64,000 nucleotides of DNA. Source: Myxococcota bacterium (lineage in GTDB: Bacteria; Myxococcota_A; UBA9160; JAFDDA01). Positions 3,701-59,284 of this stretch are shown here, one piece after another. The DNA lies in the NCBI GenBank assembly GCA_965228475.1, contig OZ245817.1:2592001-2656000 (forward strand). The letters run 5' to 3'. Position 1 is the first letter of the stretch; the number at the start of each line of letters is the position of its first letter. The translations under genes were made by a program, and so were the position numbers. The notes beneath the pieces are model-generated. The model saw only the letters and a list, made by a program, of their open reading frames with translations. It was not told the DNA's origin and ran no database searches.

Positions 3701-3782
3701 CCCCGCCGTGTATCCTCCAACGGTAGCCAGTCCGCGGTTGACCAAGTTCAACACGATCTCGCCGACCGGAGGGAATCGCAAC

Positions 3783-4844: not shown

Positions 4845-4879
4845 GCCGCAGGCAGGTCCGCTCAACGGATATGGGCAGT

Positions 4880-4920
4880 TGGTGGGCCCTGCGGGGCTCC
4901 AGCCCGCGAACCCGGACCAA
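4880..4920 (-). repeat. Degenerate copy of the tRNA 3' half (att-site remnant)
   Basis: tggtgggccctgcggggctccagcccgcgaacccggaccaa versus tRNA 6036 tggtgggccctgtggggctcgaacccacgaccctcggattaa. First 12 nt identical including CCA; same orientation. Confidence 0.75.
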
Positions 4921-5048
4921 GAGAAGAACCGAGTAGTCAGCGCGGCCCGCGCCAGAGCCGGCTGCGCGCAATCCCGCGGAGGATCGCGGCACCGAGCGCC
5001 GTCCGCGGCCCCACGTCCTTATTGCAGCCCCGAGGTAGCTAGGGTCCG

Positions 5049-5801
5049 TCAGCGCCCGATGTCTTCGGCACTCCAGCGCGAGGCTACGGGTCTTCGTGTC
5101 TGAGCAAGGCGGCCTAGCTCCAGTAGGCGCGTCCGGGCGATTTCCGGCGGAACGTCGAACGCGATCGCTATCAACTTCACGAACTCTCGATCGTCCGAAA
5201 CGGGCAGCCTGAGTTTGCGAACCGACTGGATGTCCCTGGCCGTACGGTCAACCGCACTCCGGAGTGGCTGGCGAGGCATCATCAGCGCCGAGGCGAACCG
5301 CGTCGCTTGCCACTCCATCCACCGTCTCGCGGGCGGGTCAGTCAGGACGTCAGCCTCGGTATCGGTCAACGTATCGTAGTTGCCTCGAAGCACTTCGAGA
5401 TTTCTATGGAGAACGAAATGCGCAAACTCGTGGGCCAGCACGCAACGCCGAAGGTCTGAGTTCGAGACTCGCCAATCAAGGAGTATCGCCGGCTGCGGCC
5501 GAAAGACACAGGTCCCGACCAGCACGCCGCGCTGCCGCCCTGGATTCAGATCGCAGATTTCAAAAACGAGCGTCCCGGCGGCGTCGAGCGAGACGATGTG
5601 CTCCTCGATGCTCACCGGCCGAGGCACTCGCAGTGCATTGCCATCGAAACTGGAGAGTTCGTCTTCTGCTAGCTGTTCAAGGTCCCGCGCGGAGTGATAC
5701 GGGACGCCGGAGGAGTCTACTTGGGTCAATTCTCCTTCTACGCCTTCCTGGAGGTCTTGGAGCCGATCAGATAGTGAGAGGGTTGACCAAGAAAGTAGCA
5801 T
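5049..5801 (-). CDS. ImmA/IrrE family metallo-endopeptidase
   Basis: RRCVLAHEFAHFVLH (HExxH) followed by MEWQATRFASALMMP, the characteristic ImmA/IrrE motif pair. Confidence 0.88.
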   Translation of the reverse strand: MLLSWSTLSLSDRLQDLQEGVEGELTQVDSSGVPYHSARDLEQLAEDELSSFDGNALRVPRPVSIEEHIVSLDAAGTLVFEICDLNPGRQRGVLVGTCVFRPQPAILLDWRVSNSDLRRCVLAHEFAHFVLHRNLEVLRGNYDTLTDTEADVLTDPPARRWMEWQATRFASALMMPRQPLRSAVDRTARDIQSVRKLRLPVSDDREFVKLIAIAFDVPPEIARTRLLELGRLAQTRRPVASRWSAEDIGR

Positions 5802-5871
5802 TCACTTCACAGGTTCCCTACATCCCGGAGCACCCCTCCACACCAAGTCTCCCCGCAACTCGACACACGCC

Positions 5872-6006
5872 CGTTGGGTCGCCGATCAACTCGGTCACTC
5901 TGACCCGGCTTTGACTCTCCGGGTCTGTGCCAACGCGTTGCGGGAGGCCGACACGGGCCTCTGTTCTGCCGCGTCCAGCGCCCCCGGCCGGCCCTATGCG
6001 GCCCCC
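5872..6006 (+). pseudogene. C-terminal remnant of a tyrosine recombinase/integrase
   Basis: Manual translation RWVADQLGHSDPALTLRVCANALRE matches integrase box II (LGH..x..T..Y). The catalytic Tyr codon reads TGT (Cys). No upstream integrase body; points toward the tRNA 3' end. Confidence 0.75.
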
Positions 6007-6035
6007 CATGTGGATGAACGGACGATGATCTGAAG

Positions 6036-6111
6036 TGGTGGGCCCTGTGGGGCTCGAACCCACGACCCTCGGATTAAAAGTCCGGTGCTCTACCAACTGA
6101 GCTAAGGGCCC
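6036..6111 (-). tRNA. tRNA-Lys (anticodon TTT)
   Basis: Reverse complement GGGCCCTTAGCTCAGTTGGTAGAGCACCGGACTTTTAATCCGAGGGTCGTGGGTTCGAGCCCCACAGGGCCCACCA: 76-nt cloverleaf with TTCGA T-loop and encoded CCA. Confidence 0.98.
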
Positions 6112-6145
6112 GGGCCGAGGTTAGCGCGCCGCGCGGGGCCTGCGG

Positions 6146-8224
6146 CTACGGCTGCGCCGGTGCGCCGGGGCGGTTGGCCGCCTGCCAGCGGTCGCAGCGG
6201 GTGATGAGGTCGTCGAGGACGGCGACGACGCGTTCGCGTTCGCGGACTTCGTTGCTGGTGACGTCCGGGGCGAGGCGGAGATCCGGGACTTCGTCGCGCA
6301 GGGTGTCGGCGACGCTGCGCAGGCCGCCGACGATGCGCTCGAATTCGTCCCAGGCGCCCTGTCGGCCGACGACGACCTCGCGCAGGAAGACGTCGATCTT
6401 CACGGCGAGGACGAGCACGGTCCGGGCGTTCAGGCCGGCGTTCATGGCGGCGACGCCGCCTCCGCCGGCCAGGCCGAGGAGCGCTCCGCCTCCGACCAGG
6501 ATCACCGTCCCGTGGGCGACGGCGGCGCTTCCGAGGTGCAGGATCGCGCCGAAGCCGAGGGCCGCGAGGCCGGTATTCGCGGCGATGGCGCTGGCGAGCC
6601 CGAGCAGGCCGCCGAAGGCGCTCCCGATGATCGGCGCAGCGAGGCCCGCGGTGAGCGCGCCGAGCGCGAGTCCGCCGAGCGCGACCGTCCCGACGCGCGC
6701 CCAGAACCGCGAGAGGTCCTTCAGCGCCGAACTCGAGGCGCGTTCGAGCGTGACGGGCCACGCCTCGCTCCGACCGAGCCGTTTCGCCGCGCTCCGCAGC
6801 CCAGCGCGGCGCACTTCCTTGTCGAGGGACGAACCGCCGAAGGGTCGCATGCGGCGGCGCTTTCCATCCGAGGGCCAGTACGGCTCGAAGCCCACCAGCT
6901 CGAGCAGGATGAGATCCTGGGCGTGGCGGTTCTGGGAGCCTTCGAGAGCCTCGCAGGCGGCCGCGAACTCGGGGGTCTCGACCCCGAGGATCTGCGGCAC
7001 GTCCGCACCCGAGAACTCCTCGAAGCGGCGGCGCCAGAGGTCCTGCCACTCGGCGTACCAATCCTTCTTGCGCTGAAGGCCATCGTTGGAACCGCGCGTG
7101 GGCGCGGTGGCCTTGATGTCGGCTTCGACGAGGGACGCCTGGAGCGAGGCGAGCACCGTCGTCGCCGTCGCGTCGAGGGCGAACTCGCGCAGCACGCCCT
7201 GCTCCACCCGGCCGACCCCGCCGAGGCGCGACGCGTCGAGGATGCGCCGCCAGTGCGGGTCGTCCTCGTCGATCTCGAGCGCGCGTGCGGCCCGCGCCGC
7301 GCGGCGGAAGTGGAAGAGTGCGAGGCCGAGCCGGGGAAGCAACACGTAGGCCACGCCGGTGATCGCCCAGACGTGGAGCCAGATCGCGGCCTCGGCCCCG
7401 GCCGGGTCGGCCAGCGCCCGCACCGCCTCGGCGTCCGGGAACGCCCCGCCGAGCGCCAGCGCCCCGGGCAGGAAGACGCCGTGGACGAGGCTTTCGCGCG
7501 CGGCCTCGGTGCCGACGAGCGTGCTCTCCCAGAAGGCGCGGTAGCCGAAGCCGACGCCGCGCAGGTACATCCCCGCGAGGGTGCCGAGGGCGAAGCCCAC
7601 GGCCGAGAGGTTCAGGATGCCGCGCACCCGATCGGTCGCGGGGGCCGCGGCGTGGGCGGCGTGCAGGGCGCGGAAGCGCGTCGCCACGGGCCCGAGGCCC
7701 TCGGCGGTCGAAGCGGCCCCGCGGCCCCAGAGCCGCACGAGCCAGCGAAAACCCGCGAGCAGGCCGCGCCCGAGCCAGCCGAAGTTCCCGGCGATCACCG
7801 AGGTCGGCGCGCGGAGCGACTCGTTCGCACCGGCGTCCGCTCCCCGTGGCTTCCACCCGCCGGTCGCCAGGAACGCCAGGTACGCGCCGACGCTCCAGAG
7901 CACGAGCGCCATCATCGGATTCACGAAGAGATGGATCTTCCCGCCGGGCCCGAGCGAGGCCCCCGCCACACCGAGCAGCGCGGCGCCCGCCGGAACCGCG
8001 CCGAGCAGCCAGCGCGGGGGCAGCGCGCCGTTCGCGAGCTCGGCGAGCCCGGCCGGCATGCGTTCGAGCAGGACGTCCGCGCGCCGGAGCAGCCAGGGCG
8101 CGAGCTCGTCGCGCTCCCCGGCCGCCTCGTTCGCCGCCGCGATGGATTCGGGCAGGAACGCGCCCTCCTCCACCTCTTCGAAGGCACGGACGAGGAGCAC
8201 TCGCTTGAGTTCGGCTTCCTGCAT
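6146..8224 (-). CDS. Membrane protein: DUF2868-like N-terminal half plus Gly/Ala-rich hydrophobic C-terminal half
   Basis: GMYLRG...YRAFWESTL and YVLLPRL motifs resemble DUF2868. The C-terminal GGLALGALTAGLAAPIIG segment is a glycine-zipper-like region. Confidence 0.6.
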   Translation of the reverse strand: MQEAELKRVLLVRAFEEVEEGAFLPESIAAANEAAGERDELAPWLLRRADVLLERMPAGLAELANGALPPRWLLGAVPAGAALLGVAGASLGPGGKIHLFVNPMMALVLWSVGAYLAFLATGGWKPRGADAGANESLRAPTSVIAGNFGWLGRGLLAGFRWLVRLWGRGAASTAEGLGPVATRFRALHAAHAAAPATDRVRGILNLSAVGFALGTLAGMYLRGVGFGYRAFWESTLVGTEAARESLVHGVFLPGALALGGAFPDAEAVRALADPAGAEAAIWLHVWAITGVAYVLLPRLGLALFHFRRAARAARALEIDEDDPHWRRILDASRLGGVGRVEQGVLREFALDATATTVLASLQASLVEADIKATAPTRGSNDGLQRKKDWYAEWQDLWRRRFEEFSGADVPQILGVETPEFAAACEALEGSQNRHAQDLILLELVGFEPYWPSDGKRRRMRPFGGSSLDKEVRRAGLRSAAKRLGRSEAWPVTLERASSSALKDLSRFWARVGTVALGGLALGALTAGLAAPIIGSAFGGLLGLASAIAANTGLAALGFGAILHLGSAAVAHGTVILVGGGALLGLAGGGGVAAMNAGLNARTVLVLAVKIDVFLREVVVGRQGAWDEFERIVGGLRSVADTLRDEVPDLRLAPDVTSNEVRERERVVAVLDDLITRCDRWQAANRPGAPAQP

Positions 8225-13492: not shown

Positions 13493-13578
13493 CAGGGGGA
13501 CGACGTGGATCGAGTGCAACAGACGGCGGCCGTCCGGCATCGCACGAGGATGGCGACGGCGGGCGCAGCGACGAGGGG

Positions 13579-14355
13579 ATGGCAGCGATGAGCGCGGCGG
13601 CGGCTCCGCAGCGCGAGGGCGTCCGGGTCGAGGCACGGGGGCTTTCGCGCCACTTCGGCGAGCACCGCGCGCTCGATGGCCTCGACCTCGCGATCGAGCC
13701 CGGCGAGACCTTCGGCCTGCTCGGCGCCAACGGGGCCGGCAAGACGACCTTCATCCGCCTCGTCACCGGCTACCTGCTGCCGACCGCCGGCGAGATCCTC
13801 GTCGACGGCTTTTCGCCTTCCACCCAGGCCCCGGAGGTGCACGCCCGGCTCGGCTTCGCGGCCGAGACCTCGCGCCTTTACCCGGAGCTCCGCGTGCGCC
13901 GCTTCCTCGCCTTCGCGGGCGAGATCCGGGGGCTCACCGGCGCGGCGCTCGAGGCGGCGATCGAGCGAGCGCTCGAGCGTTTCGAGCTCGGCTCCGTGGC
14001 GGGGCGCATCGTCGGGAACCTCTCGAAGGGCTACCAGCAGCGCGTGAGCCTGGCCCAGGCCTTCCTGCACGATCCGCCGCTGCTGATCGTCGACGAGCCG
14101 ACGAGCGGCCTCGATCCGCTCCACCAGGAGGCCGTGCGCGAGGTCATCCGCGAGGCCCACGGACGGCGCACCCTGCTCCTCTGCACCCACGATCTCGACG
14201 AGGCCCGGCGCCTGACCGACCGCGTGGCCGTCCTGCATCGCGGAAGCCTCGTCACCGCCGGGCCGACCGCCGAGGTGCTCGCCGGCGACGACCTCGCGCC
14301 GCTCTTCGACCCGACGGGCTCCGGCCACGAGCCGTCGGAGGCGGGCGCCCGATGA
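13579..14355 (+). CDS. ABC transporter ATP-binding protein (GldA-like)
   Basis: Walker A GANGAGKTT, signature LSKGYQQR, Walker B LIVDEPTSGLD and H-loop CTHDL. Confidence 0.92.
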   Translation: MAAMSAAAAPQREGVRVEARGLSRHFGEHRALDGLDLAIEPGETFGLLGANGAGKTTFIRLVTGYLLPTAGEILVDGFSPSTQAPEVHARLGFAAETSRLYPELRVRRFLAFAGEIRGLTGAALEAAIERALERFELGSVAGRIVGNLSKGYQQRVSLAQAFLHDPPLLIVDEPTSGLDPLHQEAVREVIREAHGRRTLLLCTHDLDEARRLTDRVAVLHRGSLVTAGPTAEVLAGDDLAPLFDPTGSGHEPSEAGAR

Positions 14356-15140
14356 GGCCCTTCCTCGCCCTCTTCCGCAAGGAGCTCGCGGTCCTGTTCG
14401 GATCCCCCGTGGCCTACCTCACGCTGACCTTCGTCGGGCTGGTGACGGCGCTCCTCTTCTTCGACCACCTGCGCGTCTACAACCAGGTGCTCTTCGTCTA
14501 CAGCAGCAACGCCATGCGCGGCTTCGAAGCCGGCACCGTCCCGGACCACGTGAACCTGCGCGACCAGGTCTTCGTGCCGCTCATGGAGACCCTGGCCATC
14601 ACGTTGATCGCGCTGATCCCGCTGGTGACGATGCGCGTGTTCGCCGAGGAGCGCGCGCGCGGTACGGACGAGCTGCTCCTGGTGAGCCGCCTCACGCCGC
14701 GCGCCATCGTGCTCGCGAAGTTCCTGGCGACGTATCTCTTCATCGCGGTCCTGCTCGCGGTGAGCTTCGTCTACCCGGCGACGTCGGTGGTGCGCGCGGG
14801 CCTCGGGCTCGAACATCTGGCGGCGGTCTACCTGGGCCTGCTCGCCGTGGCCATCGGCATCAGCTCGATCGGCCTCGCGTGCTCGGCCTTCACGCAAAGC
14901 CAGCTCGTCGCGGCGATCTCCGCCTACGGCGTGGCCTTCGTCTTCTACGACTTCGGCTGGGCCCTGCCCTTCGTCGGTGAGACGCTCGGGGGCACGCTCG
15001 ACCGGCTTTCTTTCCACACGCGCTTCGCGTCGTTCTCCGAGGGTCTGGTCGTCCCGGCGGACCTGATCTTCTTCGCGGGCGTCTCGGCGCTGTGCATCGC
15101 GCTCTCGCGCATCTCCCTCGACCTGGTGCGGGTCCGCTAG
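14352..15140 (+). CDS. ABC-2 type permease (GldF-like)
   Basis: ATGA overlap with the ATPase gene. KELAVLFGSPVAY and PLVTMRVFAEERARGTDELL motifs; about 6 TM segments. Confidence 0.88.
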   Translation: MRPFLALFRKELAVLFGSPVAYLTLTFVGLVTALLFFDHLRVYNQVLFVYSSNAMRGFEAGTVPDHVNLRDQVFVPLMETLAITLIALIPLVTMRVFAEERARGTDELLLVSRLTPRAIVLAKFLATYLFIAVLLAVSFVYPATSVVRAGLGLEHLAAVYLGLLAVAIGISSIGLACSAFTQSQLVAAISAYGVAFVFYDFGWALPFVGETLGGTLDRLSFHTRFASFSEGLVVPADLIFFAGVSALCIALSRISLDLVRVR

Positions 15141-16669
15141 TGCGCGAACTCGGCCTGGCAGGAGCGATCGCGATCGCCTTCACGCTCGTGTCCTACTACG
15201 CCACCCGTGGCCCGGCGGGCGGGGAGCTCGGCGGGTACGGCTGGGTGAACCTCGTCGGCGGCGGGGCAGCGCTCCTCGTGGCCGCCGGAATGGCCGTGCG
15301 GCGGGCCCGCGGCTTCGGAACCCCGGCGGCGCGCCGGATCCTCCTGCCGCACCTCGCCGCCACGGCGCTCCTGGTGACGGGCTTCGTCGTGGCCGAGGGC
15401 GCCGCCCGCAAGGCCGGCTGGCGCTTCGACTGGACGGCCGACGCCCGCTTCGAACTCGCCCCCGCGACCCTCGAGCTGTGCGCCCGCCTCGAACAGCCCG
15501 CTCGGGCGACCCACTTCGCCGAGCCCGGCGACCCGGACTCCCGCCGCACCCGTTTCCTGCTCGAGAGCTTCGTCGCGGCGGGCTGCTTCGACGTTCGCGA
15601 AAAGAACGCCGAGCAGTCCGAAGCGGAGCTCGACCTGTTCGGCGTGTCGACGCCCGACGCCGTCGTCCTCGAGGTCGGCGAGTACTACGACGTCGTCGAG
15701 CGCGCGAGCGAAGGGAGCCTGCTCGAGACGCTCCTGCGCCTCGAGAGCGACCCGACCCGCACCCTTTACGTCACGATCGGCGAGGGCGAGGGCGACTTCC
15801 GCGCCCCCGGGCCGGCCGGCTACTCGGGCCTGCGCGAGGCCCTCGGGAGCGAGGGCTACGTCCTGAAGAGCCTGGTGCTCGTCGCTGCGGGCGAAGTGCC
15901 CGAGGACGCGGACGGCGTGCTCGTGATCGCGCCGCGCCGGCCGCTCCACGCGAGCGCCCAGGACGCCTTGGAACGCTACGTCTCGCGCGGTGGACGGCTC
16001 GTCACGATGCTCGAACCGGGGATCGACACGGGCCTCGAACCGCTGCTCGAGCGGTTCGGCATCGACGCCGGGCCCGGCCTCGTCGTGGACTCCCGCTTCG
16101 CGGATCTCCAGGGGACCGCCCGGGGCACGGGCGTGCTCGTCTCGGACTACGCGGACCACCCCGTCGTCGAGGGCTTCGAAGGACGCCACATGAGCTTCTT
16201 CCCGAGCGTCCGCGCCGTCGTGCCGGCCCGCAAGCCGACGCCCGACGATCAGCTCGCCGCGATCCTCTACACGAGCCGCGAGGCGTTCCTCTCCGACAAC
16301 GTGGAGGCCGCCCGCCGCGGCATCGCCCCCACCCGCGGCGACGCGCGCCTCGAGCGCTTCCCGCTGGCGGCCTCGGGCCGCTACCCGCGCGAAGCCGGCG
16401 AAGGCCGCATCGTCGCCTTCGGGGACGCGGACTTCGCGAGCAACCGCTACGCCCGGGCCCTCTACAACCTCGACGTCGTCCTGAATGCCGTGCACTGGGC
16501 GCTCGAGCGCGAGCCCCAGATCACCCGGCGGCCCAAGGTGCTGACGCCCTACCAGACTCCGCTCCCGCCGCAGACCACCTTGCAGATGCTCTACGGCGTC
16601 GGCCTGCTCGTTCCGGAAGTGCTCTTGATCATCGGCGGGATCGTCTGGATCCGCCGGCGCTCGGGCTAG
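15140..16669 (+). CDS. GldG-family ABC auxiliary component
   Basis: RFDWTADARFEL, YVTIGEGE, LERYVSRGGRL and GRIVAFGDADF...NLDVVLNAVHW motifs, with N- and C-terminal TM helices. Confidence 0.85.
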   Translation: MRELGLAGAIAIAFTLVSYYATRGPAGGELGGYGWVNLVGGGAALLVAAGMAVRRARGFGTPAARRILLPHLAATALLVTGFVVAEGAARKAGWRFDWTADARFELAPATLELCARLEQPARATHFAEPGDPDSRRTRFLLESFVAAGCFDVREKNAEQSEAELDLFGVSTPDAVVLEVGEYYDVVERASEGSLLETLLRLESDPTRTLYVTIGEGEGDFRAPGPAGYSGLREALGSEGYVLKSLVLVAAGEVPEDADGVLVIAPRRPLHASAQDALERYVSRGGRLVTMLEPGIDTGLEPLLERFGIDAGPGLVVDSRFADLQGTARGTGVLVSDYADHPVVEGFEGRHMSFFPSVRAVVPARKPTPDDQLAAILYTSREAFLSDNVEAARRGIAPTRGDARLERFPLAASGRYPREAGEGRIVAFGDADFASNRYARALYNLDVVLNAVHWALEREPQITRRPKVLTPYQTPLPPQTTLQMLYGVGLLVPEVLLIIGGIVWIRRRSG

Positions 16670-16704: not shown

Positions 16705-17133
16705 TCAGTTCCTCGGTTTCCTCGTCGCCAGGCCGATCCCCCGCGCGCCGGCCTGCTGAGCGACGTCGAGGATGTTCACGGCCTGGCCGAGCAGGACCTG
16801 CCGGTCCCCCTTCAGCACCACGAACTTCTCGCGCGATTCCTCGAGGGCGGCCGTCAGCACGGCCACGATGTTCGCGTCGCTCACGGTCTCGTCGTTCACC
16901 TGGACGACGCCGTCCTTGGTGACGGTGACCGTGACGCCCTGGGGCGAGGTGTCCGAGACGGCGGCCTCGGGCAGGTTCACGTTCTTGCCCTGGCTCTGGA
17001 TCGCCGAGGCCGTGACCATGAAGATGATCAGCAGCACGAGGAACACGTCCGTCAGCGGGGTGATGTTGATCTCGGCGACGATCGCGTCGCCGCCGTCCCC
17101 GCCGTCGCTGCTAGGCAGGCTGGAGATCGCCAT
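16705..17133 (-). CDS. exbD: ExbD/TolR biopolymer transport protein
   Basis: EINITPLTDVFLVLLIIFMV with the conserved Asp; VNLP and LKGDRQV motifs. Confidence 0.92.
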   Translation of the reverse strand: MAISSLPSSDGGDGGDAIVAEINITPLTDVFLVLLIIFMVTASAIQSQGKNVNLPEAAVSDTSPQGVTVTVTKDGVVQVNDETVSDANIVAVLTAALEESREKFVVLKGDRQVLLGQAVNILDVAQQAGARGIGLATRKPRN

Positions 17134-17818
17134 CCGGCACCTCCTGCGCACCGCTCGCCGGCGGCGAGGCCCCACCGCCCGACGCTTCCACGTAGAGCAG
17201 GGCCTGGACGAAGCGGTCGCTCGAGCGATGGAAGACGCCCGCGATGTCGCCCACGCGCACCTGGAGCCAGTTGAAGAAGGCCAGCGCGACGATGGCGACC
17301 AGCAGGCCGACGGCCGTGGCCACGAGCGCTTCGGAGATGCCCGCCGCGACGACCTCGAAGCCGCCCACGCCCTCGACGGCCATGTCCTGGAAGGCGCGCA
17401 GGATACCGATCACGGTGCCGAGCAGACCGATGAACGGCGCCAGCGAGCCGATCGTTCCGAGGATCCACAGGCCCCGCCGGAGCTCGTGCACCACTTCGGC
17501 CCGTGAGGTCGCGAGGATGCGGTCGAGGTCTTCGAGGGCGACGTTGCGCCAGCGCAGCGCCTCCTGGAAGACGTCGCTCATGGGGGTCTTCGTCGCCTGG
17601 CACGTCGCCAGCGCGGCGGAGAGGTCGCGCTGGGAGAGCGATTCCACGACCTTGCGGGTCAGGTCCCGGGTGCGCTTGGCGAGGCCGCGGTAGCGCCAGA
17701 GCCGCTCGAAGACGATCCCGAGGGCGATCACGGACATGATCCCGAGCGGGACGGTCGTGAGCGCGCCGATCCGCAGCAGTTCAAGAACGGTCAAGCGTTC
17801 GACACCGACGCCTTCCAC
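17111..17818 (-). CDS. exbB: MotA/TolQ/ExbB proton channel protein (start approximate)
   Basis: LGTIGSLAPFIGLLGTVIGI and GISEALVATAVGL motifs; overlaps exbD. Confidence 0.9.
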   Translation of the reverse strand: MEGVGVERLTVLELLRIGALTTVPLGIMSVIALGIVFERLWRYRGLAKRTRDLTRKVVESLSQRDLSAALATCQATKTPMSDVFQEALRWRNVALEDLDRILATSRAEVVHELRRGLWILGTIGSLAPFIGLLGTVIGILRAFQDMAVEGVGGFEVVAAGISEALVATAVGLLVAIVALAFFNWLQVRVGDIAGVFHRSSDRFVQALLYVEASGGGASPPASGAQEVPDGDLQPA

Positions 17819-17834
17819 GAGCGCGTACCTCCAA

Positions 17835-17885
17835 CCTTCAGTCGGTTCTGAGCCTTCAGTCGGTTCCGGGCTTCGATCGGTTCCG
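17835..17885. repeat. Three tandem 17-18 bp repeats upstream of exbB
   Basis: ccttcagtcggttc at 17835 and 17853, plus degenerate cttcgatcggttc at 17871. Confidence 0.75.
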
Positions 17886-18027
17886 ACTCTTTCGGCCGGC
17901 CCCGATTTCACTACGTGCCAAAGGTCACTTCGGCTACGCGGCCAGCGGAATCTACCGGACCGCTTGTGGGGCTGCACCGTCACCCGTGTTGCGTGCTTGC
18001 GTTGCACAGTTGCCGGTCGCTGCTGCG

Positions 18028-18056
18028 TTGACAGCGTGAGGGCCGAAGCCTACGAT
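18028..18056 (+). promoter_or_regulatory. Putative sigma70 promoter for the TonB-like/repeat-protein operon
   Basis: TTGACA-17 nt-TACGAT. Confidence 0.65.
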
Positions 18057-18155
18057 TTTTCGAGGGTTCGGGGGGTTTTCTCGAAGGGTGTTCGAACTCT
18101 TCGGGCGTTCCGAACGTCGCAAGGATGACGGCGCTGCCGTCGGCTAGCATCGGCC

Positions 18156-18201
18156 GACTCGCCTCGGCGAGCTCGTAGGACTCGCCGCGGCGAGCACGAA
18201 G
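18156..18201. repeat. Tandem 23-bp repeat, each copy palindromic
   Basis: gactcgcctcggcgagctcgtag followed by gactcgccgcggcgagcacgaag; core CTCGCC-NN-GGCGAG. Confidence 0.75.
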
Positions 18202-18217
18202 GGAACTGACGTTCGGC

Positions 18218-19363
18218 ATGAAGGACGAAGCGTTCATCGTCCGTCGTAGACGGGCCCGTTCGACGCCGATGCGCTCACGCCGCATCGGCGCGGCCCTCGC
18301 TGCGGGCGGGGCCGGCGGCGGCAGCGGCGCCCCCGTCGAGTTCCCGGGCATCGACTTCGAAGACAAGGACCAGGCCGGCGGCCGCTGGGCCGGAATGGGC
18401 CTGGCCGCCCTGATCCACGGAGGGTTTCTCGCCTTCCTGATGGCCCTGGCGGCCCTGAACCCCGAGATCGCCGAAGAGATCATCGAGCTCCAGCTCATGA
18501 AGGAGCCGCCCGCCGCCAAGACCGACCCGGCGCCCGCCCGCCGCGTCGTCGCCGAGCGCCGCTCCGCGAACTTCGCGCCCCAGGCCCAGGCCCTGAAGGC
18601 CGACGTCGCGAACCCGAAGGTCGTGGCCCGCCGCTCGGCCATCGCCTCCAAGGCCTTCCAGGTCGACGCCGCCGGCGCGCGCGTCGCTCCCCGCCAGGTC
18701 ACCCGCGCGCGGGTCAACACCACGCGCGTGAACGCGATTGCCACCGTCGCCCAGCCGACCCGCACGGACCTGAACGTCGCCGACAGCGCGGCCCCGGCCC
18801 TGCGCTCGGCGAGCGTCACCGGGCCGACCGGCCCCTCGGTGGGCCCGCGCCAGATCGTCGCCAAGGGCGACTCGATCGGAACCGGGCCCTCCATGGTGAT
18901 CGGGCTCGGCGACACCTCCTCCGTACGCGACGGCATCGATTCCGACCGCGACGTGCTCGGCTCGAGCACGGGGCCGCGGCTCGCCAACGTCGACACCGCC
19001 ATCGGCCAGGGCCTCATGGACGGCAGCGGCGGCACGGGGCGCGGCGGCGTCGCCATGGGCGACTGCTATAAGCTGCCGGAGGTGCTCCAGTACCTCGAGT
19101 CGGTAAAGGTGAGAACGTTGGCTCGCTGGGTTCTCCCCCCGAACATCCCGGCCAACCAAGAGGTGGCCCTGCGCTTCAGGATTGACCCGGCAGGGACGGC
19201 CACGCGCGTCGACGTCGTCAGGACCGAGAACCAGGCGCTTGGCCAGAGCGCGGTAGACGCCCTCAAGAACGCTTCACCCTTCCCCGCCATGTCCGGCCGC
19301 GCGCGCTGCCTCTCGCGCGAACCCATCGTCGCGACGTTCCGCAACCCGAACGCCAGCGGATAG
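18218..19363 (+). CDS. TonB/TolA-like energy transducer
   Basis: Single TM helix with His (AALIHGG), Ala/Arg/Val-rich then Gly-rich linker, C-terminal TonB_2/TolA-like domain (RW.LP...FRIDPAG...SAVDALKNASPFP). Divergent from exbBD. Confidence 0.82.
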   Translation: MKDEAFIVRRRRARSTPMRSRRIGAALAAGGAGGGSGAPVEFPGIDFEDKDQAGGRWAGMGLAALIHGGFLAFLMALAALNPEIAEEIIELQLMKEPPAAKTDPAPARRVVAERRSANFAPQAQALKADVANPKVVARRSAIASKAFQVDAAGARVAPRQVTRARVNTTRVNAIATVAQPTRTDLNVADSAAPALRSASVTGPTGPSVGPRQIVAKGDSIGTGPSMVIGLGDTSSVRDGIDSDRDVLGSSTGPRLANVDTAIGQGLMDGSGGTGRGGVAMGDCYKLPEVLQYLESVKVRTLARWVLPPNIPANQEVALRFRIDPAGTATRVDVVRTENQALGQSAVDALKNASPFPAMSGRARCLSREPIVATFRNPNASG

Positions 19364-19372
19364 ACTCCTCTC

Positions 19373-22300
19373 GTGATCGCCCGACGCTTCCTTGCCCCGT
19401 TGATCGTCCTGACCCTCGCCACCGGCAGCCCACCGGCAGCGGGCCGCTCGCCCGTCGTCCTCGAGTACGACGACGCCGAGCAGCTCAAGCTGAAGAAGGT
19501 CGATACCAACGGCGACGGCATGTACGACGAGCTCGTCCACTACCAGGACGGCAAGACGGTTCGGGCCGAGCGCGACGACGACCACGACGGCCGCATGGAC
19601 GTGACCATCCACTTCCGGGACGACGGCAAGACCCGGCTTCGCCAGGAGCGCGACACGAGCGGCAACGGCCGCATCGACCAGTGGGTCGACTTCGACGCCA
19701 ACGACCAGCCCGCCCTCCAGAAGACCGACCGCAACCAGGACGGCAAGCCCGATGCCACCATCACCTACCACCGCGGCCAGCCCGCCTCCGAAGAGCACGA
19801 TTCGAACTTCGACGGCAAGCCCGACCGCTTCGTCCGCTACGAGGGCGGAAAGCTCTCCTCGATCGACGAGGATCAGACCTACGACGGGAAGATCGACGTC
19901 CACGCGGTCTACGGCGCCGACGGCGAGAAGATCCGCGAGAAGCAGGACACCACGGGCGACGGCAACTTCGACGTCACCATCAACTACGAGAACGGGAAGA
20001 AGGTCCTGCTCTCCGAGGACGCCGACGCCAACGGCAAGCTCGAGCGCGTGACCTACTACCGCGACGAGGTCGTCACCAAGCGCGAGGCGGACACCACCGG
20101 GGACGGCCACTTCGACACCGTGGCCCTCTTCGAGGGCGGCACCGAGCGTTTCCAGTACCGCGACGAGGACGGCGACGGGCAGAACGAGTTCGTCATCACC
20201 TTCGCCGCCAACGGCGACCGGGAGCTCGAGGAGATCGACACCGACGGCGACGGGCGCCACGATGTCGTCCGCCGCTTCGAGAACGGCTTGAAGGCCCGCG
20301 AAGAGGAAGACCAGAACCACGACGGCAAGGTCGACCTGATCCGCGAGTTCCAGGGCGACCTGATCCTGAAGAGCCGGGCCGACGTGAACTTCGACGGCCG
20401 CATGGACACCTTCGTCGAGTACGCCGGCGGCGCCAAGCTCGAGCAGACCGAAGACCGCAACGGCGACCGCAAGCCCGACGCCCTCTACCGCTTCGACGAA
20501 AAGGGCCAGGTCGAGCTCGAGCAATTCGACGAGGACTTCGACGGCCACTACGAGATCGTGGCCGAGCGCAGCGGCGGGAAGATCGTGCGGCGCTCCGTCG
20601 ACGCCAAGAAGAAGGGCTCCCCCCAGCGCATCGAGCAGTTCGACGCGAACGAGCGGCTCGTGCAGGTCCAGCTCGACGAGAACGTCGACGGCCGCATCGA
20701 CGTGTGGAACTTCTATGGTGGGGGCAAGCGCCTCGTCCGCCAGGAGCAGGACCAGGACTTCGACGGGAACCCCGACGCCTGGATCGAGCTCGACCCGAAC
20801 ACCGGCAAGGAGACCGCCGTCCGCCGCGACACGGACGGCGACGGCAAACCCGACGTGTTTCGGCAGAACGACGTGAACGGCGTCGCCCAGAAGGTCGAGG
20901 AAGACCGCGACAAGGACGGCAAGGCGGACCGCTTCGTCTTCTACGAGGGCGGCCAGGCGGCCCGGTTCGAAGAGGACGACGACGGGGACGGCAAGCCCGA
21001 CGTCCGCGGCACGCTCGACGCCGACGGCAAGGTGGCCTTCGAGGAGCGCGAGCCCACGCGGGGCGGCGCCTTCAACCTTCGCGTCTTCTACGAAGGCGGC
21101 GAGAAGGTCAAGGAAGAGCGGGCCACCAAGGGCGATGGCAAGATCGACGTCGTCACCTTCTTTGCGGACGGCAAGCAGACCCGCCAGCAGCAGGACACGA
21201 CGGGCAAGGGTTCCTTCGACTCGACCATCGTCTTCGCCGACGGCAAGCAGGCCGAGCAGAGCCTCGACACCGACGGCGACGGCAAGCCCGACCAGGTCAC
21301 CCGCTTCGATTCGGACGGCCGCCCCGAGCGCGAGGAGATCGACCGCAACGGCGACGGCAAGCCCGACTTCGTGAAGTCCTACTCGCGCGGCAAGCTCGTC
21401 CGCGAAGAGGAAGACCGCGATCAGGACGGCGACTTCGACCTCGTCACCGAGTACGACGACGAGCTGCCGAAGCGCTCCGTCGAGGACGCCGACGGCGACG
21501 GCCGGCCCGAGATCGTGATCGACTACGAGAACGGGAAGAAAGCACGCCAGGAAGAAGACCCGGGCTCGGACGGACGCATCGACGTGGTCACCGTCTTCGA
21601 CGCGAACGAGCGGCCCGCCCGCATCGAAGTCGACGGCGACGAGGACGGACGCCGCGAAACCGTGCAGACCTTCACCGCCGGCCAGCTCGTGCGCGAAGAG
21701 AAGGACATGAACGGCGACGGGAAGCCGGACGTGATCTCGGAGTTCGAGAACGGCAAGCTCGCGCGCCAGGAGAAGGACGTCGACTTCGACGGCAAGCCCG
21801 ACCAGCGCGTCGTGGCCGGCGCCGACGGTGCCGCCGTGCAGGAGGCCGACTCCGATGGTGACGGCAAGATCGACACCTGGATCACCCTCGACGACCAGGG
21901 CCGCCCGAAACTCCGGCGCGAGGACCGCAACGGCGACGGCAAGCCCGAGCTCGTCGCGACCTTCAAGAACGGCGTGATCCAGCGCCTCGAGGAGGACGTG
22001 AACGGCGCGGGCTGCTTCACCCTGGTCCAGGACCACGACGCCGCCGGCGAGATCTCCTACGAGAAGCGGGACGCCAACGACGACTGCAAGTTCGACCTCT
22101 GGACCTGGCTCCAGAACGGCAAGATCCGCAAGCAGGCCGAGGACCCGCGCGGGACCGGCAAGGCCACCGTGCTCACCAAGTACGACGCCCAGCAGCGGCC
22201 CCAGCTCCAGGAGGTCGTGAGCGAGGGCAAGCGCCGGCCGGACAAGAAGCTCTTCCTACGCGCCAACGGCACCGTGCGCTCCCAGTGCGTGGACGGCGAC

Positions 22301-22636
22301 GGCAACGGCCGCCTCGACACGCGCATCCGCCTCGACGATGGCGGCAACGTCTCCGAAGTCGCCCTCGACACGGACGGCAACGGGGGCGTCGACCAGCAGG
22401 AGATCTACTCGGGCGGCATTCTCGTCCGCTTCGACGCGGACACCAACGCGGACGGCAAGGCCGACGTCGTCGAGCACCGCCAGGGCGACACCGTCACGCA
22501 CCAGGACCAGGACAGCGACTTCGACGGCGTGCTCGACTACCGCTTCGTCGGCGAGCAGGCGACCGAGATCAAGACGAAGGTCCCGGCCTTCGGGAGCCTC
22601 GGCTGCGGCAACTTCGATCCGTTCTGGCGGAGCTGA
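19373..22636 (+). CDS. Large secreted protein made of about 42 tandem Dx[DN]xDG-xxD repeats (24-26 aa)
   Basis: Signal peptide MIARRFLAPLIVLTLA. Manual parse gives 42 units such as DTDGDGKPDQVTRFDSDGRPEREEI. Lies 9 nt downstream of the TonB-like gene. Confidence 0.9.
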   Translation: MIARRFLAPLIVLTLATGSPPAAGRSPVVLEYDDAEQLKLKKVDTNGDGMYDELVHYQDGKTVRAERDDDHDGRMDVTIHFRDDGKTRLRQERDTSGNGRIDQWVDFDANDQPALQKTDRNQDGKPDATITYHRGQPASEEHDSNFDGKPDRFVRYEGGKLSSIDEDQTYDGKIDVHAVYGADGEKIREKQDTTGDGNFDVTINYENGKKVLLSEDADANGKLERVTYYRDEVVTKREADTTGDGHFDTVALFEGGTERFQYRDEDGDGQNEFVITFAANGDRELEEIDTDGDGRHDVVRRFENGLKAREEEDQNHDGKVDLIREFQGDLILKSRADVNFDGRMDTFVEYAGGAKLEQTEDRNGDRKPDALYRFDEKGQVELEQFDEDFDGHYEIVAERSGGKIVRRSVDAKKKGSPQRIEQFDANERLVQVQLDENVDGRIDVWNFYGGGKRLVRQEQDQDFDGNPDAWIELDPNTGKETAVRRDTDGDGKPDVFRQNDVNGVAQKVEEDRDKDGKADRFVFYEGGQAARFEEDDDGDGKPDVRGTLDADGKVAFEEREPTRGGAFNLRVFYEGGEKVKEERATKGDGKIDVVTFFADGKQTRQQQDTTGKGSFDSTIVFADGKQAEQSLDTDGDGKPDQVTRFDSDGRPEREEIDRNGDGKPDFVKSYSRGKLVREEEDRDQDGDFDLVTEYDDELPKRSVEDADGDGRPEIVIDYENGKKARQEEDPGSDGRIDVVTVFDANERPARIEVDGDEDGRRETVQTFTAGQLVREEKDMNGDGKPDVISEFENGKLARQEKDVDFDGKPDQRVVAGADGAAVQEADSDGDGKIDTWITLDDQGRPKLRREDRNGDGKPELVATFKNGVIQRLEEDVNGAGCFTLVQDHDAAGEISYEKRDANDDCKFDLWTWLQNGKIRKQAEDPRGTGKATVLTKYDAQQRPQLQEVVSEGKRRPDKKLFLRANGTVRSQCVDGDGNGRLDTRIRLDDGGNVSEVALDTDGNGGVDQQEIYSGGILVRFDADTNADGKADVVEHRQGDTVTHQDQDSDFDGVLDYRFVGEQATEIKTKVPAFGSLGCGNFDPFWRS

Positions 22637-22651: not shown

Positions 22652-22969
22652 CTACGGACAGCTGTAGATCCCGTAGACCCGCTCGCCCGAGGCCACGTCT
22701 TCGAGGGGCGACACGGCGTTCCCGCCCATGTTCACCGCTTCCTGACGCGCCAGCCGTTCGAGCTCCTCTTCGACCTTGCTCCCGCGGCGCGGGATGAAGC
22801 CGACCTTGTCGAGCGTTCGGGTGTGGGTCTTCCCGAGGCGCTTACATCCGGCCACGTCGCCCGCCGCCCGGACGTTCACGGCTTCCGCGCGCGGCCCGAG
22901 GGCGACCCAGGTGCAACCCGTCGCCAAGAGACCGCCCAGAACGGCCGCGGAGATCGTTCGTCTGCTCAT
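22652..22969 (-). CDS. DUF4156-like small lipoprotein
   Basis: Lipobox LATG-C, GCKRLG, LARQEAVNMGGNAV and terminal YSCP. Confidence 0.75.
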   Translation of the reverse strand: MSRRTISAAVLGGLLATGCTWVALGPRAEAVNVRAAGDVAGCKRLGKTHTRTLDKVGFIPRRGSKVEEELERLARQEAVNMGGNAVSPLEDVASGERVYGIYSCP

Positions 22970-23130
22970 GCCTTCGGATCCTCCTCCACGAATGGACGCC
23001 GCTGCCGGGCTCCGAGTTCTCGGAAGGGCGAAACGCCGGCCGGCCCCGGGCCAACCCGGGCGAGGTTCGCCCGTTTCGCCCGGCTTCGCCCACCCGGGCG
23101 TGCGCGGCGCCGACTCTGCCGCCCGCCGCG

Positions 23131-23181: not shown

Positions 23182-24528
23182 GTGAAGCTTCGTACGATTC
23201 TCTGGGTGGGTTCGGGGGACGGCCGCGGCGCGAGCGTCGTCAGCGATGCCGTGAGCCTCGACGTGGCCTGGGCGCGGGATGCGGAGGACGCCCTGGCCCT
23301 CCCCCTCGCCGCCTTCGAGGCGCTCGTGGTGGATGCCGGCTCGGCCCGCACGGCGCGCGCGACGATCGCGGCATTGCGCGAGGCGGAACCGAGCGCGGCC
23401 ATCCTCGTGCGGATCGACCCCGCCGAGCGCGCGGACGCGGCCCTGCTCGAGAGCGCGGGTGCCTCGCGCGTGATGCTGCGCCCGACCGAACACGCCCGGC
23501 CCGGCGCCGACGCCGAGGCGATCGTGCAGGAGCTCGACCGTCTCCCCCGCAGAAGCCCTTCCACCCCGCCGCCGGCGCGCGGGCTCGACGCCCTCGTCGG
23601 GAACAGCCGCGCACTGCAGGCCCTGCGAACCCTCGCGCGCCGCGCCGCGCGCTCCCAGGCCTCGATTCTCGTCTCGGGCGAGACGGGGACCGGCAAGGAG
23701 CTGCTCGCGCGTGCGATCCACGAAGAAAGCCCGCGCAGCAAGGGCCCCTTCATTGCGATCAACTGCGCCGCGTTCCCCGAGACCCTGCTCGAGAGCGAAC
23801 TCTTCGGCCACGCCAAGGGCGCCTTCACGGGCGCCGACCGGGAGCGCAAGGGCCTGTTCGCCGCAGCCGACCGCGGCACGCTCTTCCTCGACGAAGTCGG
23901 CGAGACCTCCGCCGGGCTCCAGGCGAAGCTCCTGCGGGCGCTGCAGGAGGGCGAGGTCCGGCCCGTAGGAGGAACGGCCGCGCGGCGGGTGGACGCGCGC
24001 ATCGTCGCCGCCACCAACCGCGACCTCGAAGAGGAGATCGAACGCGGCGGCTTCCGCGAAGACCTCTTCTACCGCCTCGCCGTCTTCCCGCTCCGCATGC
24101 CCTCGCTGCGGGAGCGCATCGACGACGTCGTCCCCCTGGCCGAACACTTCACCGCACGGCAGGCCGAGAAGCGTGGCGAACTCGTCTCTCGCTTGGCCCC
24201 GGCGGCAGAAGAGATCCTCCAGCTCCACGCCTGGCCGGGAAACGTCCGCGAGCTCCAGAACGAGATCGAACGCGCGCTCGCCCTGGCGGAGCCCGGCCAG
24301 CCGCTCCGCCCGGAACACTTCTCCGAACGGCTGGCCTCGGCCCGCGGCGCCCTCGGCAACGTCACGGGCCCCACCGGCACCCTGCGCGACGCCATGGACC
24401 GCGTCGAGGCCTGGTACCTCCGCCGCGCCCTCGCCGAAAACGCCGGCCGCCGCGCGGCCACGGCGCGCAAGCTCGGCATCACGCGCGAGGGGCTCTACAA
24501 GAAGATGAAGCGGCTGGGGGTCGAGTGA
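23182..24528 (+). CDS. Sigma54-dependent Fis-family enhancer-binding protein with degenerate receiver domain
   Basis: GETGTGKE, ESELFGH, GAFTGA, LFLDEVG, FREDLFYRL, WPGNVREL and C-terminal Fis HTH. Confidence 0.95.
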   Translation: MKLRTILWVGSGDGRGASVVSDAVSLDVAWARDAEDALALPLAAFEALVVDAGSARTARATIAALREAEPSAAILVRIDPAERADAALLESAGASRVMLRPTEHARPGADAEAIVQELDRLPRRSPSTPPPARGLDALVGNSRALQALRTLARRAARSQASILVSGETGTGKELLARAIHEESPRSKGPFIAINCAAFPETLLESELFGHAKGAFTGADRERKGLFAAADRGTLFLDEVGETSAGLQAKLLRALQEGEVRPVGGTAARRVDARIVAATNRDLEEEIERGGFREDLFYRLAVFPLRMPSLRERIDDVVPLAEHFTARQAEKRGELVSRLAPAAEEILQLHAWPGNVRELQNEIERALALAEPGQPLRPEHFSERLASARGALGNVTGPTGTLRDAMDRVEAWYLRRALAENAGRRAATARKLGITREGLYKKMKRLGVE

Positions 24529-58471: not shown

Positions 58472-59284
58472 GTGGGACTGCGAATCAACACCAACGTCGC
58501 CTCGCTCCGGGTGCAGCGAAATCTCGCCGAGAACACCCGCCAGATCGGCGTCCTGATGGAGCGGCTCTCCTCGGGCCTCCGCATCAACCGGGCCTCGGAC
58601 GACCCGGCGGGCCTCGCGATCTCCGAGCGCATGCGGGCCCGCATCCGCGGCCTCCAGCAGGCCGAGCGCAACGCCCTAGACGGGATCTCGCTCGTCCAGA
58701 TCGCCGAGGGCGCCCTCGCCGAGAGTGCGAACCTGCTGATCCGCATGCGCGAGCTCGCCATCCAGGCGGCCAACGGCTCCCTCTCGGACGCGGACCGCGC
58801 CTCCATCCAGCAGGAGGTGGACGACAACCTCGCCGAGATCGACCGGATCGCCGCGGTGACGGACTTCAACGGCGTCTTCCCGCTCGCCGGGAGCAGCCCG
58901 ATCTTCCTCGCGATCGACCCGAACGGGAGCGGGATCTCGATCGGCGGCGTCGATGCCTCGGGCGCGGCCCTCGGCCTCGCGAGCGCCGACGTCTCGACCG
59001 CCGACGCCGCCCGGGCCCGGCTCTCGGCGATCGATCAAGCCATCGGCAACCTCTCGAGCCTGCGCGCGACGCTCGGCACGGCCCAGAATCGGATCGAGTC
59101 CGCGATCCGCAGCATCCGGGTGAACATCGAGAACACCTCGGCCGCGGAGTCGCGCATCCGCGACGCCGACCTCGCGGACCTCGTCTCGGAACTCTCGCGG
59201 CGCCAGGTCCTCCAGCAGTTCGGCACCGCGCTGCTGACCCAGGCCAACCTGGCGCCTTCGATCGCCCTGCGGCTCCTGCCCTAG
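58472..59284 (+). CDS. fliC: Flagellin, minimal 270 aa (D0/D1 only)
   Basis: MGLRINTNVASL, ERLSSGLRINRASDDPAGLAIS, RMRELAIQAANG, LGTAQNR, SRIRDAD and QAN terminal motifs. Confidence 0.95.
   Translation: MGLRINTNVASLRVQRNLAENTRQIGVLMERLSSGLRINRASDDPAGLAISERMRARIRGLQQAERNALDGISLVQIAEGALAESANLLIRMRELAIQAANGSLSDADRASIQQEVDDNLAEIDRIAAVTDFNGVFPLAGSSPIFLAIDPNGSGISIGGVDASGAALGLASADVSTADAARARLSAIDQAIGNLSSLRATLGTAQNRIESAIRSIRVNIENTSAAESRIRDADLADLVSELSRRQVLQQFGTALLTQANLAPSIALRLLP

What the first reader, a model, noticed from the sequence alone, without database searches (positions are those of the whole stretch)
16705..22636. Receptor-less ExbB/ExbD/TonB-like motor paired with a giant DxDGDG-repeat secreted protein
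Seen: exbB-exbD is divergent from a two-gene unit encoding a TonB/TolA-like transducer and, 9 nt later, a 1087-aa signal-peptide protein. No TonB-dependent receptor, TolB or Pal is in the window. Known: the same motor class powers Ton uptake, Tol-Pal and the myxobacterial Agl-Glt gliding machine, each defined by the partner its TonB-C domain pulls on. Inference: the repeat protein is the dedicated client or track of a separate proton-motive-force-driven envelope machine (transport bridge, adhesion, motility or predation). This is the best candidate for an undescribed system here.
Basis: partly seen in the sequence, partly recalled or inferred. Interest (0 to 1): 0.78.

Follow-up and report, generated by a model that had tools for sequence, protein, structure and literature searches.

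The report
Proton motor with giant beta-ribbon partner
An uncultured class of myxobacterial relatives keeps a Ton/Tol-type membrane motor and its pulling arm next to a giant secreted protein predicted to form a long beta-ribbon, and these likely form an undescribed machine that, with a lipoprotein and an adhesin-like protein gained and lost alongside them, would pull on the cell surface.

Summary
exbB-exbD diverge from a TonB/TolA-type transducer and a 1087-aa exported protein of 42 acidic-loop beta-hairpin units (only 7 loops are exactly DxDGDG). The repeat gene follows the transducer in 170 of 170 loci; divergent exbB is present in 138 of 144. No receptor or TolB was found in 165 loci. The genome encodes separate Tol and Ton systems, lacks Agl-Glt, and this ExbB forms its own clade. 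The transducer occurs in 181 of 225 genomes of the class (likely UBA9160). Two further parts lie elsewhere in this genome: a glycine-zipper repeat lipoprotein and a secreted vWA protein. They join the locus in six genomes of one family, and the set is lost together in one genus (vWA 0 of 31, motor 1 of 31) that keeps TolB. AlphaFold predicts an open MORN/OspA-like ribbon; global shape uncertain. Best reading: a dedicated proton-driven force-transmitting machine built like the Glt core (motor, transducer, periplasmic shaft, lipoprotein, vWA) from unrelated parts. Binding and function are untested. This scan noted the same kind of locus on other genomes (e1-2405548, e1-6794432). Seven literature searches found no description.

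The parts
16705..17133 (-). ExbD/TolR-type motor subunit, 142 aa, one membrane helix with the conserved proton-accepting Asp
   Evidence: PF02472; below the cut-offs of tolR and ExbD equivalogs; motif [IV]N[IVL]TP[LMF]xD in 170 of 170 homologues
17111..17818 (-). ExbB/TolQ-type motor subunit, about 235 aa, three membrane segments; start codon uncertain
   Evidence: PF01618; TIGR02796 118 bits against cut-off 221, TIGR02797 76 against 206; channel motifs GLxGTVxGI in 71 of 72 and EALxATA in 68 of 72 homologues; own clade
18028..18056 (+). sigma-70-type promoter-like site TTGACA-17-TACGAT upstream of the transducer
   Evidence: only such site in 6.7 kb, 0.2 expected; conserved in four close relatives L002, L140-L142; activity untested
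18218..19363 (+). TonB/TolA-type force transducer, 381 aa: short cytoplasmic tail, membrane helix with S/A63-H67-L74-A78, strand 88-94 (motor-box-like), conserved but predicted-disordered domain II (about 96-279), TolA-III/TonB-CTD domain with two conserved Cys
   Evidence: H67 112 of 112; C283 112 of 112; C364 108 of 112; Foldseek: TolA-III and TonB-CTD, E 2e-4 to 5e-4
19373..22636 (+). Giant exported repeat protein, 1087 aa, 42 acidic loops between 43 beta-hairpins, net charge -98, conserved N-terminal VxLxYDxxE strand and C-terminal CGxFxxFW cap
   Evidence: AlphaFold2 pLDDT 88, pTM 0.39, 86 strands; VIA matches OspA single-layer sheet Z 9.8, MORN1 Z 9.0, junctophilin Z 8.6

Best explanation
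The four genes are a conserved unit that likely encodes the core of a dedicated proton-driven envelope machine, in which the ExbB/ExbD-type motor would pull the TonB/TolA-type arm, the arm would bind the predicted long periplasmic beta-ribbon, and the ribbon would pass the force to an outer-membrane glycine-zipper repeat lipoprotein and a secreted vWA adhesin-like protein to grip or retract something at the cell surface. Shown: gene identities, intact motor and motor-docking residues, fixed linkage, own ExbB clade, class-wide spread, joint loss. Predicted: the ribbon fold; disorder of the arm's domain II when alone. Inferred: periplasmic location, calcium binding by the loops, domain II folding along the ribbon with the C-terminal domain on an edge strand (by analogy to GltG on GltD), the roles of lipoprotein and vWA protein, and a mechanical (adhesion or tethering) rather than an uptake function.
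For: Linkage 170 of 170; no receptor or TolB match in 165 loci while control loci were found; separate Tol and Ton operons in the genome; no full-length GltG or GltE in G000; own ExbB clade. Giant form in 51 of 58 class genomes and none of 243 other phylum genomes, best E 3.9e-28 (hand count); vWA family in 36 of 38 class and 0 of 163 other genomes. Genus g29: motor 1 of 31, giant 1 of 31 and any repeat match 3 of 31, transducer only G434, vWA 0 of 31 against 36 of 37 in the rest of the family, TolB kept in 30 of 31. In six genomes of family f13, transducer, giant, lipoprotein, exbD, exbB, vWA and a glycine-zipper OmpA gene share one neighbourhood. vWA and lipoprotein genes converge within about 4 kb in 70 of 78 genomes where both are listed (hand count). 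Unit number nearly fixed, each unit conserved in register. Domain II is 40.6% identical to the window's on average, more than the membrane helix (33.7%), yet pLDDT under 50 alone. One protein fuses the repeats to a TonB-type C-terminal domain (P0209). vWA has an invariant DxSxS..T..D metal site. Analogy: GltG's disordered segment is modelled in a crevice of the 1191-aa GltD (PMC11761067, passages).
Against: No binding or function is shown. Mutual information on 112 paired sequences (effective 86) gave no coherent inter-protein pattern. The joint loss is one event in one genus. G434 keeps motor, transducer and a shortened giant without the vWA gene. The glycine-zipper N-domain was found in only 1 of 68 genomes of family f10, although a repeat gene still faces the vWA gene there. 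No outer-membrane barrel partner was identified, so how the vWA protein would reach the surface is open; it has no lipobox. The transducer lacks GltG's FHA domains. P0209 is a single sequence on a 1.9-kb contig with no second full fusion among the 120 listed hits. Short cousins of the repeat in other myxobacteria had no ExbB in 20 of 20 loci, so the repeat alone does not imply a motor. pTM 0.39 leaves the global shape open.
Confidence: 0.45

Rival explanations
1. A second Tol-Pal-like system: the ribbon stands in for TolB and the glycine-zipper OmpA lipoprotein for Pal, so the motor moves outer-membrane-to-wall tethers (or lipids) to keep the envelope intact or to constrict it at division.
For: C-terminal domain matches TolA-III as well as TonB; a glycine-zipper OmpA gene borders the locus in 6 f13 genomes and precedes the vWA gene in G000; single copy in most genomes and near-consensus housekeeping promoter.
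Against: A canonical tolQRA-tolB operon is present and is kept where the module is lost; the OmpA gene matched only 6 of 165 module loci; the vWA metal site is not explained.
Confidence: 0.22
2. An auxiliary Ton system for metal or solute capture: the acidic ribbon with 42 loops binds calcium or lanthanides (or a cargo) in the periplasm and works with unlinked TonB-dependent receptors.
For: Net charge about -100; Dx[DN]xDG loops bind calcium in many folds (PMC3123361, passages); weak sequence hits to lanmodulin (E 0.002); one receptor carries these repeats at its N-terminus (P0016); six receptors in the genome.
Against: No receptor match in 165 loci; receptors in G000 mostly have their own TonB-C genes nearby; position 12 of the loop is hydrophobic, not the EF-hand Glu; a metal sponge would not need a fixed unit number with position-specific conservation, nor a vWA partner.
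Confidence: 0.15
3. The giant protein closes into an Rhs/YD-type shell that encapsulates or chaperones a cargo (for instance the transducer's domain II or the vWA protein), which the motor extracts.
For: Foldseek's best hits are Rhs, teneurin and Tc shells at E down to 2e-21; fixed length of about 1070 aa resembles Rhs cores; pTM 0.39 does not exclude a shell.
Against: Those hits have TM 0.1 and rmsd about 60 A; the rigid-body search prefers open sheets; the Rhs core motif PxxxxDPxG occurs in 1 of 112 sequences; there is no variable C-terminal toxin and no immunity gene; the C-terminus is a conserved cap.
Confidence: 0.12
4. The linkage is positional inertia: an ordinary extra TonB set sits beside an unrelated secreted repeat protein.
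For: All loci come from one class; other neighbours (GldAFG-type ABC, aroA, serA) are also often conserved.
Against: The transducer-giant pair survives a complete change of neighbourhood and motor position in f13; joint loss with unlinked genes in g29; the ABC neighbours are missing from several loci with full flanks.
Confidence: 0.04

Closest known systems
Agl-Glt gliding machine and its core complex (AglRQS, GltG, GltD, GltE, GltC; adhesin CglB)
   Same: Overall layout: 5:2-type motor, TonB-C transducer with a long disordered arm, a roughly 1100-aa periplasmic repeat shaft, a roughly 450-aa repeat lipoprotein and a vWA protein (PMC11761067 and PMC3169522, passages).
   Different: Shaft and lipoprotein are beta-hairpin repeats, not TPR; one ExbD, not two; no FHA domains; no GltA/B/H barrels found; ExbB outside the AglR-like clade; no full-length GltG or GltE in the genome. 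Not homologous beyond motor and TonB-C domain.
Tol-Pal (TolQRA, TolB, Pal, CpoB)
   Same: Motor and transducer type; C-terminal fold matches TolA-III; an OmpA-domain lipoprotein is adjacent in six genomes.
   Different: No TolB in 165 loci; ExbB outside the TolQ clade; a canonical tol operon exists elsewhere.
Ton system (ExbB-ExbD-TonB with TonB-dependent receptors)
   Same: Motor, SHLS-like helix, motor-box-like strand, TonB-C domain.
   Different: No linked receptor; domain II conserved in sequence; fixed giant partner.
vWA force transducers (PMC12204202, Fig. 4 text)
   Same: An orphan motor associated with a vWA protein.
   Different: There the vWA domain replaces the TonB-C domain on a membrane-anchored arm; here the arm keeps TonB-C and the vWA protein is separate and secreted.
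MORN/YwqK, OspA single-layer sheets, YD/Rhs repeats; Lsa25.6 family (NF050087)
   Same: Antiparallel beta-hairpin meander; weak match to Lsa25.6 (81 bits).
   Different: An acidic Dx[DN]xDG loop between hairpins; below the Lsa25.6 cut-off of 150; no Rhs core motif; five times longer than Lsa25.6.

Membership tests
ExbBD/TolQR-type proton motor with TonB/TolA-type transducer | ExbB/TolQ channel motifs and ExbD/TolR membrane Asp | tested here: met
   (71 of 72, 68 of 72, 170 of 170)
ExbBD/TolQR-type proton motor with TonB/TolA-type transducer | Membrane helix with SHLS-type His, motor box, TonB/TolA C-terminal fold | tested here: met
   fourth position is Ala rather than Ser
ExbBD/TolQR-type proton motor with TonB/TolA-type transducer | Proton-driven force transduction | not testable with these tools
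   needs experiment
Tol-Pal | tolB and pal next to tolQRA (criterion of PMC12204202) | tested here: not met
   TolB 0 of 165 loci; OmpA-domain gene 6 of 165; window scan
Tol-Pal | ExbB-like subunit in the TolQ clade / above TIGR02796 cut-off | tested here: not met
   118 bits against 221; separate clades
Ton system | Linked TonB-dependent receptor | tested here: not met
   0 of 165 loci; linkage is not obligatory for Ton systems
Ton system | C-terminal domain binds receptor TonB boxes | not testable with these tools
   needs binding assay
Agl-Glt | AglR-type motor with two ExbD-like subunits | tested here: not met
   one ExbD; outside the AglR-like clade. That clade was labelled from context (GltG-like and GltE-like genes flank L136), not with a named AglR sequence
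Agl-Glt | GltG (FHA + TonB-C) and TPR proteins GltD/GltE | tested here: not met
   G000 has only FHA-part matches to NF033760 and no NF033758 match at 1e-10; GltD itself not searched
Rhs/YD shell proteins | PxxxxDPxG core motif and variable C-terminal toxin | tested here: not met
   1 of 112; conserved C-terminus
Rhs/YD shell proteins | Closed spiral shell | tested here: inconclusive
   TM 0.1 to shells but pTM 0.39
Dx[DN]xDG calcium-binding loops | Motif followed by a further acidic ligand | tested here: met
   D92% position 1, N/D 73% position 3, D76% position 5, G84% position 6, D/E 93% position 9
Dx[DN]xDG calcium-binding loops | Measured calcium binding | not testable with these tools
   needs experiment
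Lsa25.6 adhesin family (NF050087) | Score above curated cut-off, about 200 aa | tested here: not met
   81 bits against 150

The most novel reading that the evidence does not exclude
An independently evolved counterpart of the myxobacterial focal-adhesion machine: a proton motor hauling on a 40-nm calcium-stiffened beta-ribbon shaft that drives a vWA adhesin at the surface, giving a whole uncultured class (and probably other phyla) an unrecognised form of surface traction, attachment or prey contact.
Probability: 0.2. Interest if true: 0.9.

Novelty: new variant of a known kind. Interest (0 to 1): 0.7.

Why it matters
Ton, Tol-Pal and Agl-Glt are told apart by what the transducer pulls on. This is a further, class-wide partner set with a fold not known in that role, and its parts list (motor, arm, shaft, lipoprotein, vWA) parallels the gliding core with unrelated proteins. 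It offers a test of how such machines are assembled by convergence, a natural loss lineage for comparison, and a concrete envelope function to look for in an abundant uncultured class reported to lack much of the canonical social and predatory toolkit (bioRxiv 10.64898/2026.07.10.737566, section 16).

Tried and rejected
Inter-protein mutual information: scattered pairs, no pattern; too few sequences. Motor replacement in family f13: their ExbB forms a separate clade but holding it together with the module clade was not rejected (p-AU 0.198), so a swap is not shown; the careful tree did not finish and quick trees are reported; the test against the AglR-like clade was not reached in the time limit. 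GldAFG-type ABC genes (13570-16669) as part of the machine: gldG matched in 46 of 78 genome loci (hand count) but is missing from several loci with full flanks and from the f13 arrangement; treated as a neighbour. sigma-54 activator and DUF4156 downstream: variable distance or no match. EF-hand/lanmodulin membership: only E 0.001-0.002 from the loops. FG-GAP propeller: Pfam below cut-off; model has no propeller. Short 200-aa repeat lipoproteins of other myxobacteria as motor partners: no ExbB in 20 of 20 loci; lepA adjacent in 9 of 18 scanned. Link to flagella: none; g29 has MotB in 25 of 31, the rest of its family in 9 of 37, and G000 has both systems. No RNA holder listed. No solved structure related by sequence to the vWA alignment at E 0.01. 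Cluster member look-up could not be made, so names and contexts of the 400-630-aa cousins (Atlas: Binatota, Thermodesulfobacteriota, Nitrospinota) stayed unchecked. The first protein search found only two full-length relatives because it is word-based and misses this divergent repeat; genome searches superseded it.
Full report
Observation. The four ORFs are present as described. Pfam gives ExbD, MotA_ExbB and TonB_C/TonB_2; the motor subunits fall below the cut-offs of the tolQ, tolR, exbB and exbD equivalogs. The 1087-aa protein starts 9 nt after the transducer stop. It holds 42 units of 24-25 aa, each an acidic loop followed by two strands; 25 loops match Dx[DN]xDG and 7 are exactly DxDGDG. 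Its net charge is -98. A near-consensus promoter-like site lies at 18028-18056 and is conserved in four close relatives. None of 62 window proteins scanned matched a receptor, TolB or OmpA family.

Genome context. The closed 5.0-Mb genome has seven MotA/ExbB genes, six receptor barrels and seven TonB-C domains. They include a tolQ-tolR-tolA-tolB-cpoB operon at 3.00 Mb, a two-ExbB, two-ExbD, TonB, TPR, receptor operon at 1.86 Mb, two flagellar motAB pairs and a divergent exbBD at 4.41 Mb. It has no full-length GltG and no GltE match, while genomes of other classes of the phylum do. So the module is an extra motor in a cell that has Tol and Ton and seems to lack Agl-Glt. Record titles of related loci read Myxococcota or Deltaproteobacteria, one of them 'isolate UBA9160'; I infer class UBA9160, no tool named it.

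Linkage. Of 218 loci with the transducer (78 genome, 80 metagenome, 60 fetched), 187 were non-redundant. The repeat gene follows directly in 170 of 170 with at least 300 nt downstream; divergent exbB is in 138 of 144 and exbD in 125 of 131 with enough upstream sequence. The six exceptions are L066 (not resolved) and five genomes of family f13, where an exbB lies downstream of the giant or elsewhere. The genome's six receptors and TolB matched none of 165 loci (not de-duplicated; 74 of at least 12 kb), whereas control loci were found; this tblastn test could miss very distant receptors. Full-length repeat proteins span 991-1119 aligned residues in 111 loci, most near 1070, and each unit keeps its own conserved letters.

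Spread. The transducer profile matched 181 of 225 class genomes, mostly once. The giant form matched 51 of 58 class genomes in a phylum sample and none of 243 others, where the best E-value was 3.9e-28 (hand count). Those others mostly carry a 200-aa lipoprotein with 4-6 units, often beside lepA (9 of 18 loci scanned) and without ExbB in 20 of 20 loci. Mid-length cousins exist in other phyla, but their neighbourhoods could not be read.

Motor tree. In quick IQ-TREE trees of 61 and 46 rows the module ExbB is one clade at SH-aLRT 100 on a long stem, apart from TolQ (99), an AglR-like group (97 and 94) and two further ExbB groups. Reference rows came from G000 and five other genomes of the phylum; labels rest on context and on TIGR02796 for one row, not on named sequences. 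Four duplicate rows were dropped, and six more long-branch or redundant reference rows. The f13 motors form their own clade; joining them to the module clade was not rejected (p-AU 0.198).

More parts. G000 has three more proteins with these units: lipoproteins at C1:4095304-4096560 (glycine zipper, coiled coil, 8 units) and C1:2313286-2314686, and a TPR protein at C1:1479473-1481185. In six f13 genomes the neighbourhood holds the giant, the first lipoprotein, then on the other strand exbD, exbB, a secreted vWA protein and a glycine-zipper OmpA lipoprotein; the transducer is in view in five, the sixth contig ends inside the giant, and my gene caller missed some genes that the blast runs then found. 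The vWA orthologue in G000 is C1:4117127-4118425, next to an OmpA gene; it has an invariant DxSxS, Thr, Asp metal site. The vWA family matched 104 of 130 well-assembled class genomes and 0 of 163 genomes outside the class. The lipoprotein's N-domain matched 149 of 225. The two genes converge within about 4 kb in 70 of 78 genomes listed in both tables (hand count); in G000 they are 21 kb apart. Genus g29 has lost the set: module ExbB 1 of 31, giant 1 of 31, any repeat match 3 of 31, vWA 0 of 31 against 36 of 37 in the rest of the family, while TolB is kept in 30 of 31. This is one loss event. Against a strict parts list: G434 keeps motor, transducer and a shortened giant without vWA, and the glycine-zipper domain matched 1 of 68 genomes of family f10.

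Structure. AlphaFold2 models the giant as a continuous meander of 86 strands, pLDDT 88, pTM 0.39; at the textbook 4.8 A per strand that would be about 41 nm if straight. Foldseek ranks Rhs, teneurin and Tc shells first, but with TM 0.1 and rmsd about 60 A; VIA-align prefers open single-layer sheets (OspA variant Z 9.8, MORN1 9.0, junctophilin 8.6, CPAP 8.4), values the tool calls middling for repeats. The Rhs core motif is in 1 of 112 sequences. Cys pairs 881/905 and 972/1078 are conserved, which fits an oxidising compartment and a capped C-end; the N-terminal strand VxLxYD is conserved and is a candidate edge for strand addition (inference). The transducer has H67 in 112 of 112, a motor-box-like strand, and a TolA-III/TonB-CTD fold. 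Its 170-220-aa domain II is predicted disordered yet is 40.6% identical to the window's on average, whereas PMC12204202 (parts 1-4 of 9 read, plus passages) describes domain II of TolA and TonB as poorly conserved. That pattern suits folding on a partner. Covariation gave no usable inter-protein signal and the complex could not be folded.

Mechanism. Best reading: a dedicated proton-driven machine whose arm binds the ribbon and passes force to an outer-membrane lipoprotein and a vWA protein. The analogy is the Agl-Glt model, in which GltG's disordered segment runs in a crevice of the 1191-aa GltD with its TonB-C domain at GltD's N-terminal domain (PMC11761067, passages). PMC3169522 (passages) notes that the Glt core alone does not drive gliding and has unknown jobs elsewhere, so motility is not implied. 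I put about 0.8 on the giant being a dedicated partner of this arm and 0.45 on the full mechanical reading; rivals are a second Tol-Pal-like tether (0.22), metal or solute capture with unlinked receptors (0.15), a cargo shell (0.12) and positional inertia (0.04).

Novelty. Seven searches (listings seen) found no description of this module; PMC12204202 has no passage on such a repeat partner in its main text, its supplements were not opened, and most subscription journals are not covered. PMC3123361 (passages) describes the loop motif in other folds. The bioRxiv paper 10.64898/2026.07.10.737566 (section 16 and passages) lists UBA9160 among lineages often lacking canonical social and predatory components. 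This scan had noted the same kind of locus on other genomes (e1-2405548, e1-6794432); the second note primed me to look for a lipoprotein and a vWA gene, which I then tested. Verdict: a new variant of a known motor kind with an undescribed partner set; interest 0.7.

Noticed in passing
window 17835-17883: Three copies of a 14-nt motif spaced 17-18 nt apart just upstream of the likely exbB start; in the extended exbB frame two read as a six-residue repeat. Five copies in the whole genome; not seen in relatives.
   Followed up: partly
window 13570-16669: GldA/GldF/GldG-type ABC transporter converging on exbD; a frequent but not fixed neighbour.
   Followed up: partly
window 22652-22970: Small DUF4156 protein converging on the repeat gene; not matched in the 78 genome loci.
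   Followed up: partly
window 23182-24528: sigma-54 activator with an atypical N-terminal region (no receiver domain matched).
   Followed up: no
window 2015-8224: TPR protein, trypsin-like protein, IrrE-like peptidase and a DUF2868 protein in a stretch that my codon model mostly did not call, possibly acquired.
   Followed up: no
window 58472-59284: A lone flagellin gene far from the flagellar cluster at 1.70-1.74 Mb.
   Followed up: no
G000:C1:4409077-4411737 (L083): A fourth, highly divergent exbB-exbD pair among unannotated genes; noted before as e1-4835570.
   Followed up: no
G000:C1:1867754-1869199 (L081:12755-14200): Penicillin-binding transpeptidase fused to a TonB-C domain; noted before as e1-7819364.
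   Followed up: no
G000:C1:1703114-1705306 (L079:3115-5307): A longer paralogue of the vWA protein beside the flagellar motAB genes; the family has several paralogues per genome in the class.
   Followed up: partly
L090-L106: A 200-aa repeat lipoprotein, near universal in the sampled phylum (211 of 243 genomes outside the class match the repeat profile) and often divergent from lepA; function unknown.
   Followed up: partly
family f10: The genus that lost the module is mostly flagellated (MotB 25 of 31) while its module-bearing relatives mostly are not (9 of 37); one clade only.
   Followed up: partly
G386: One genome holds two copies of the module (contigs C120 and C102); duplication or a mixed bin.
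   Followed up: no
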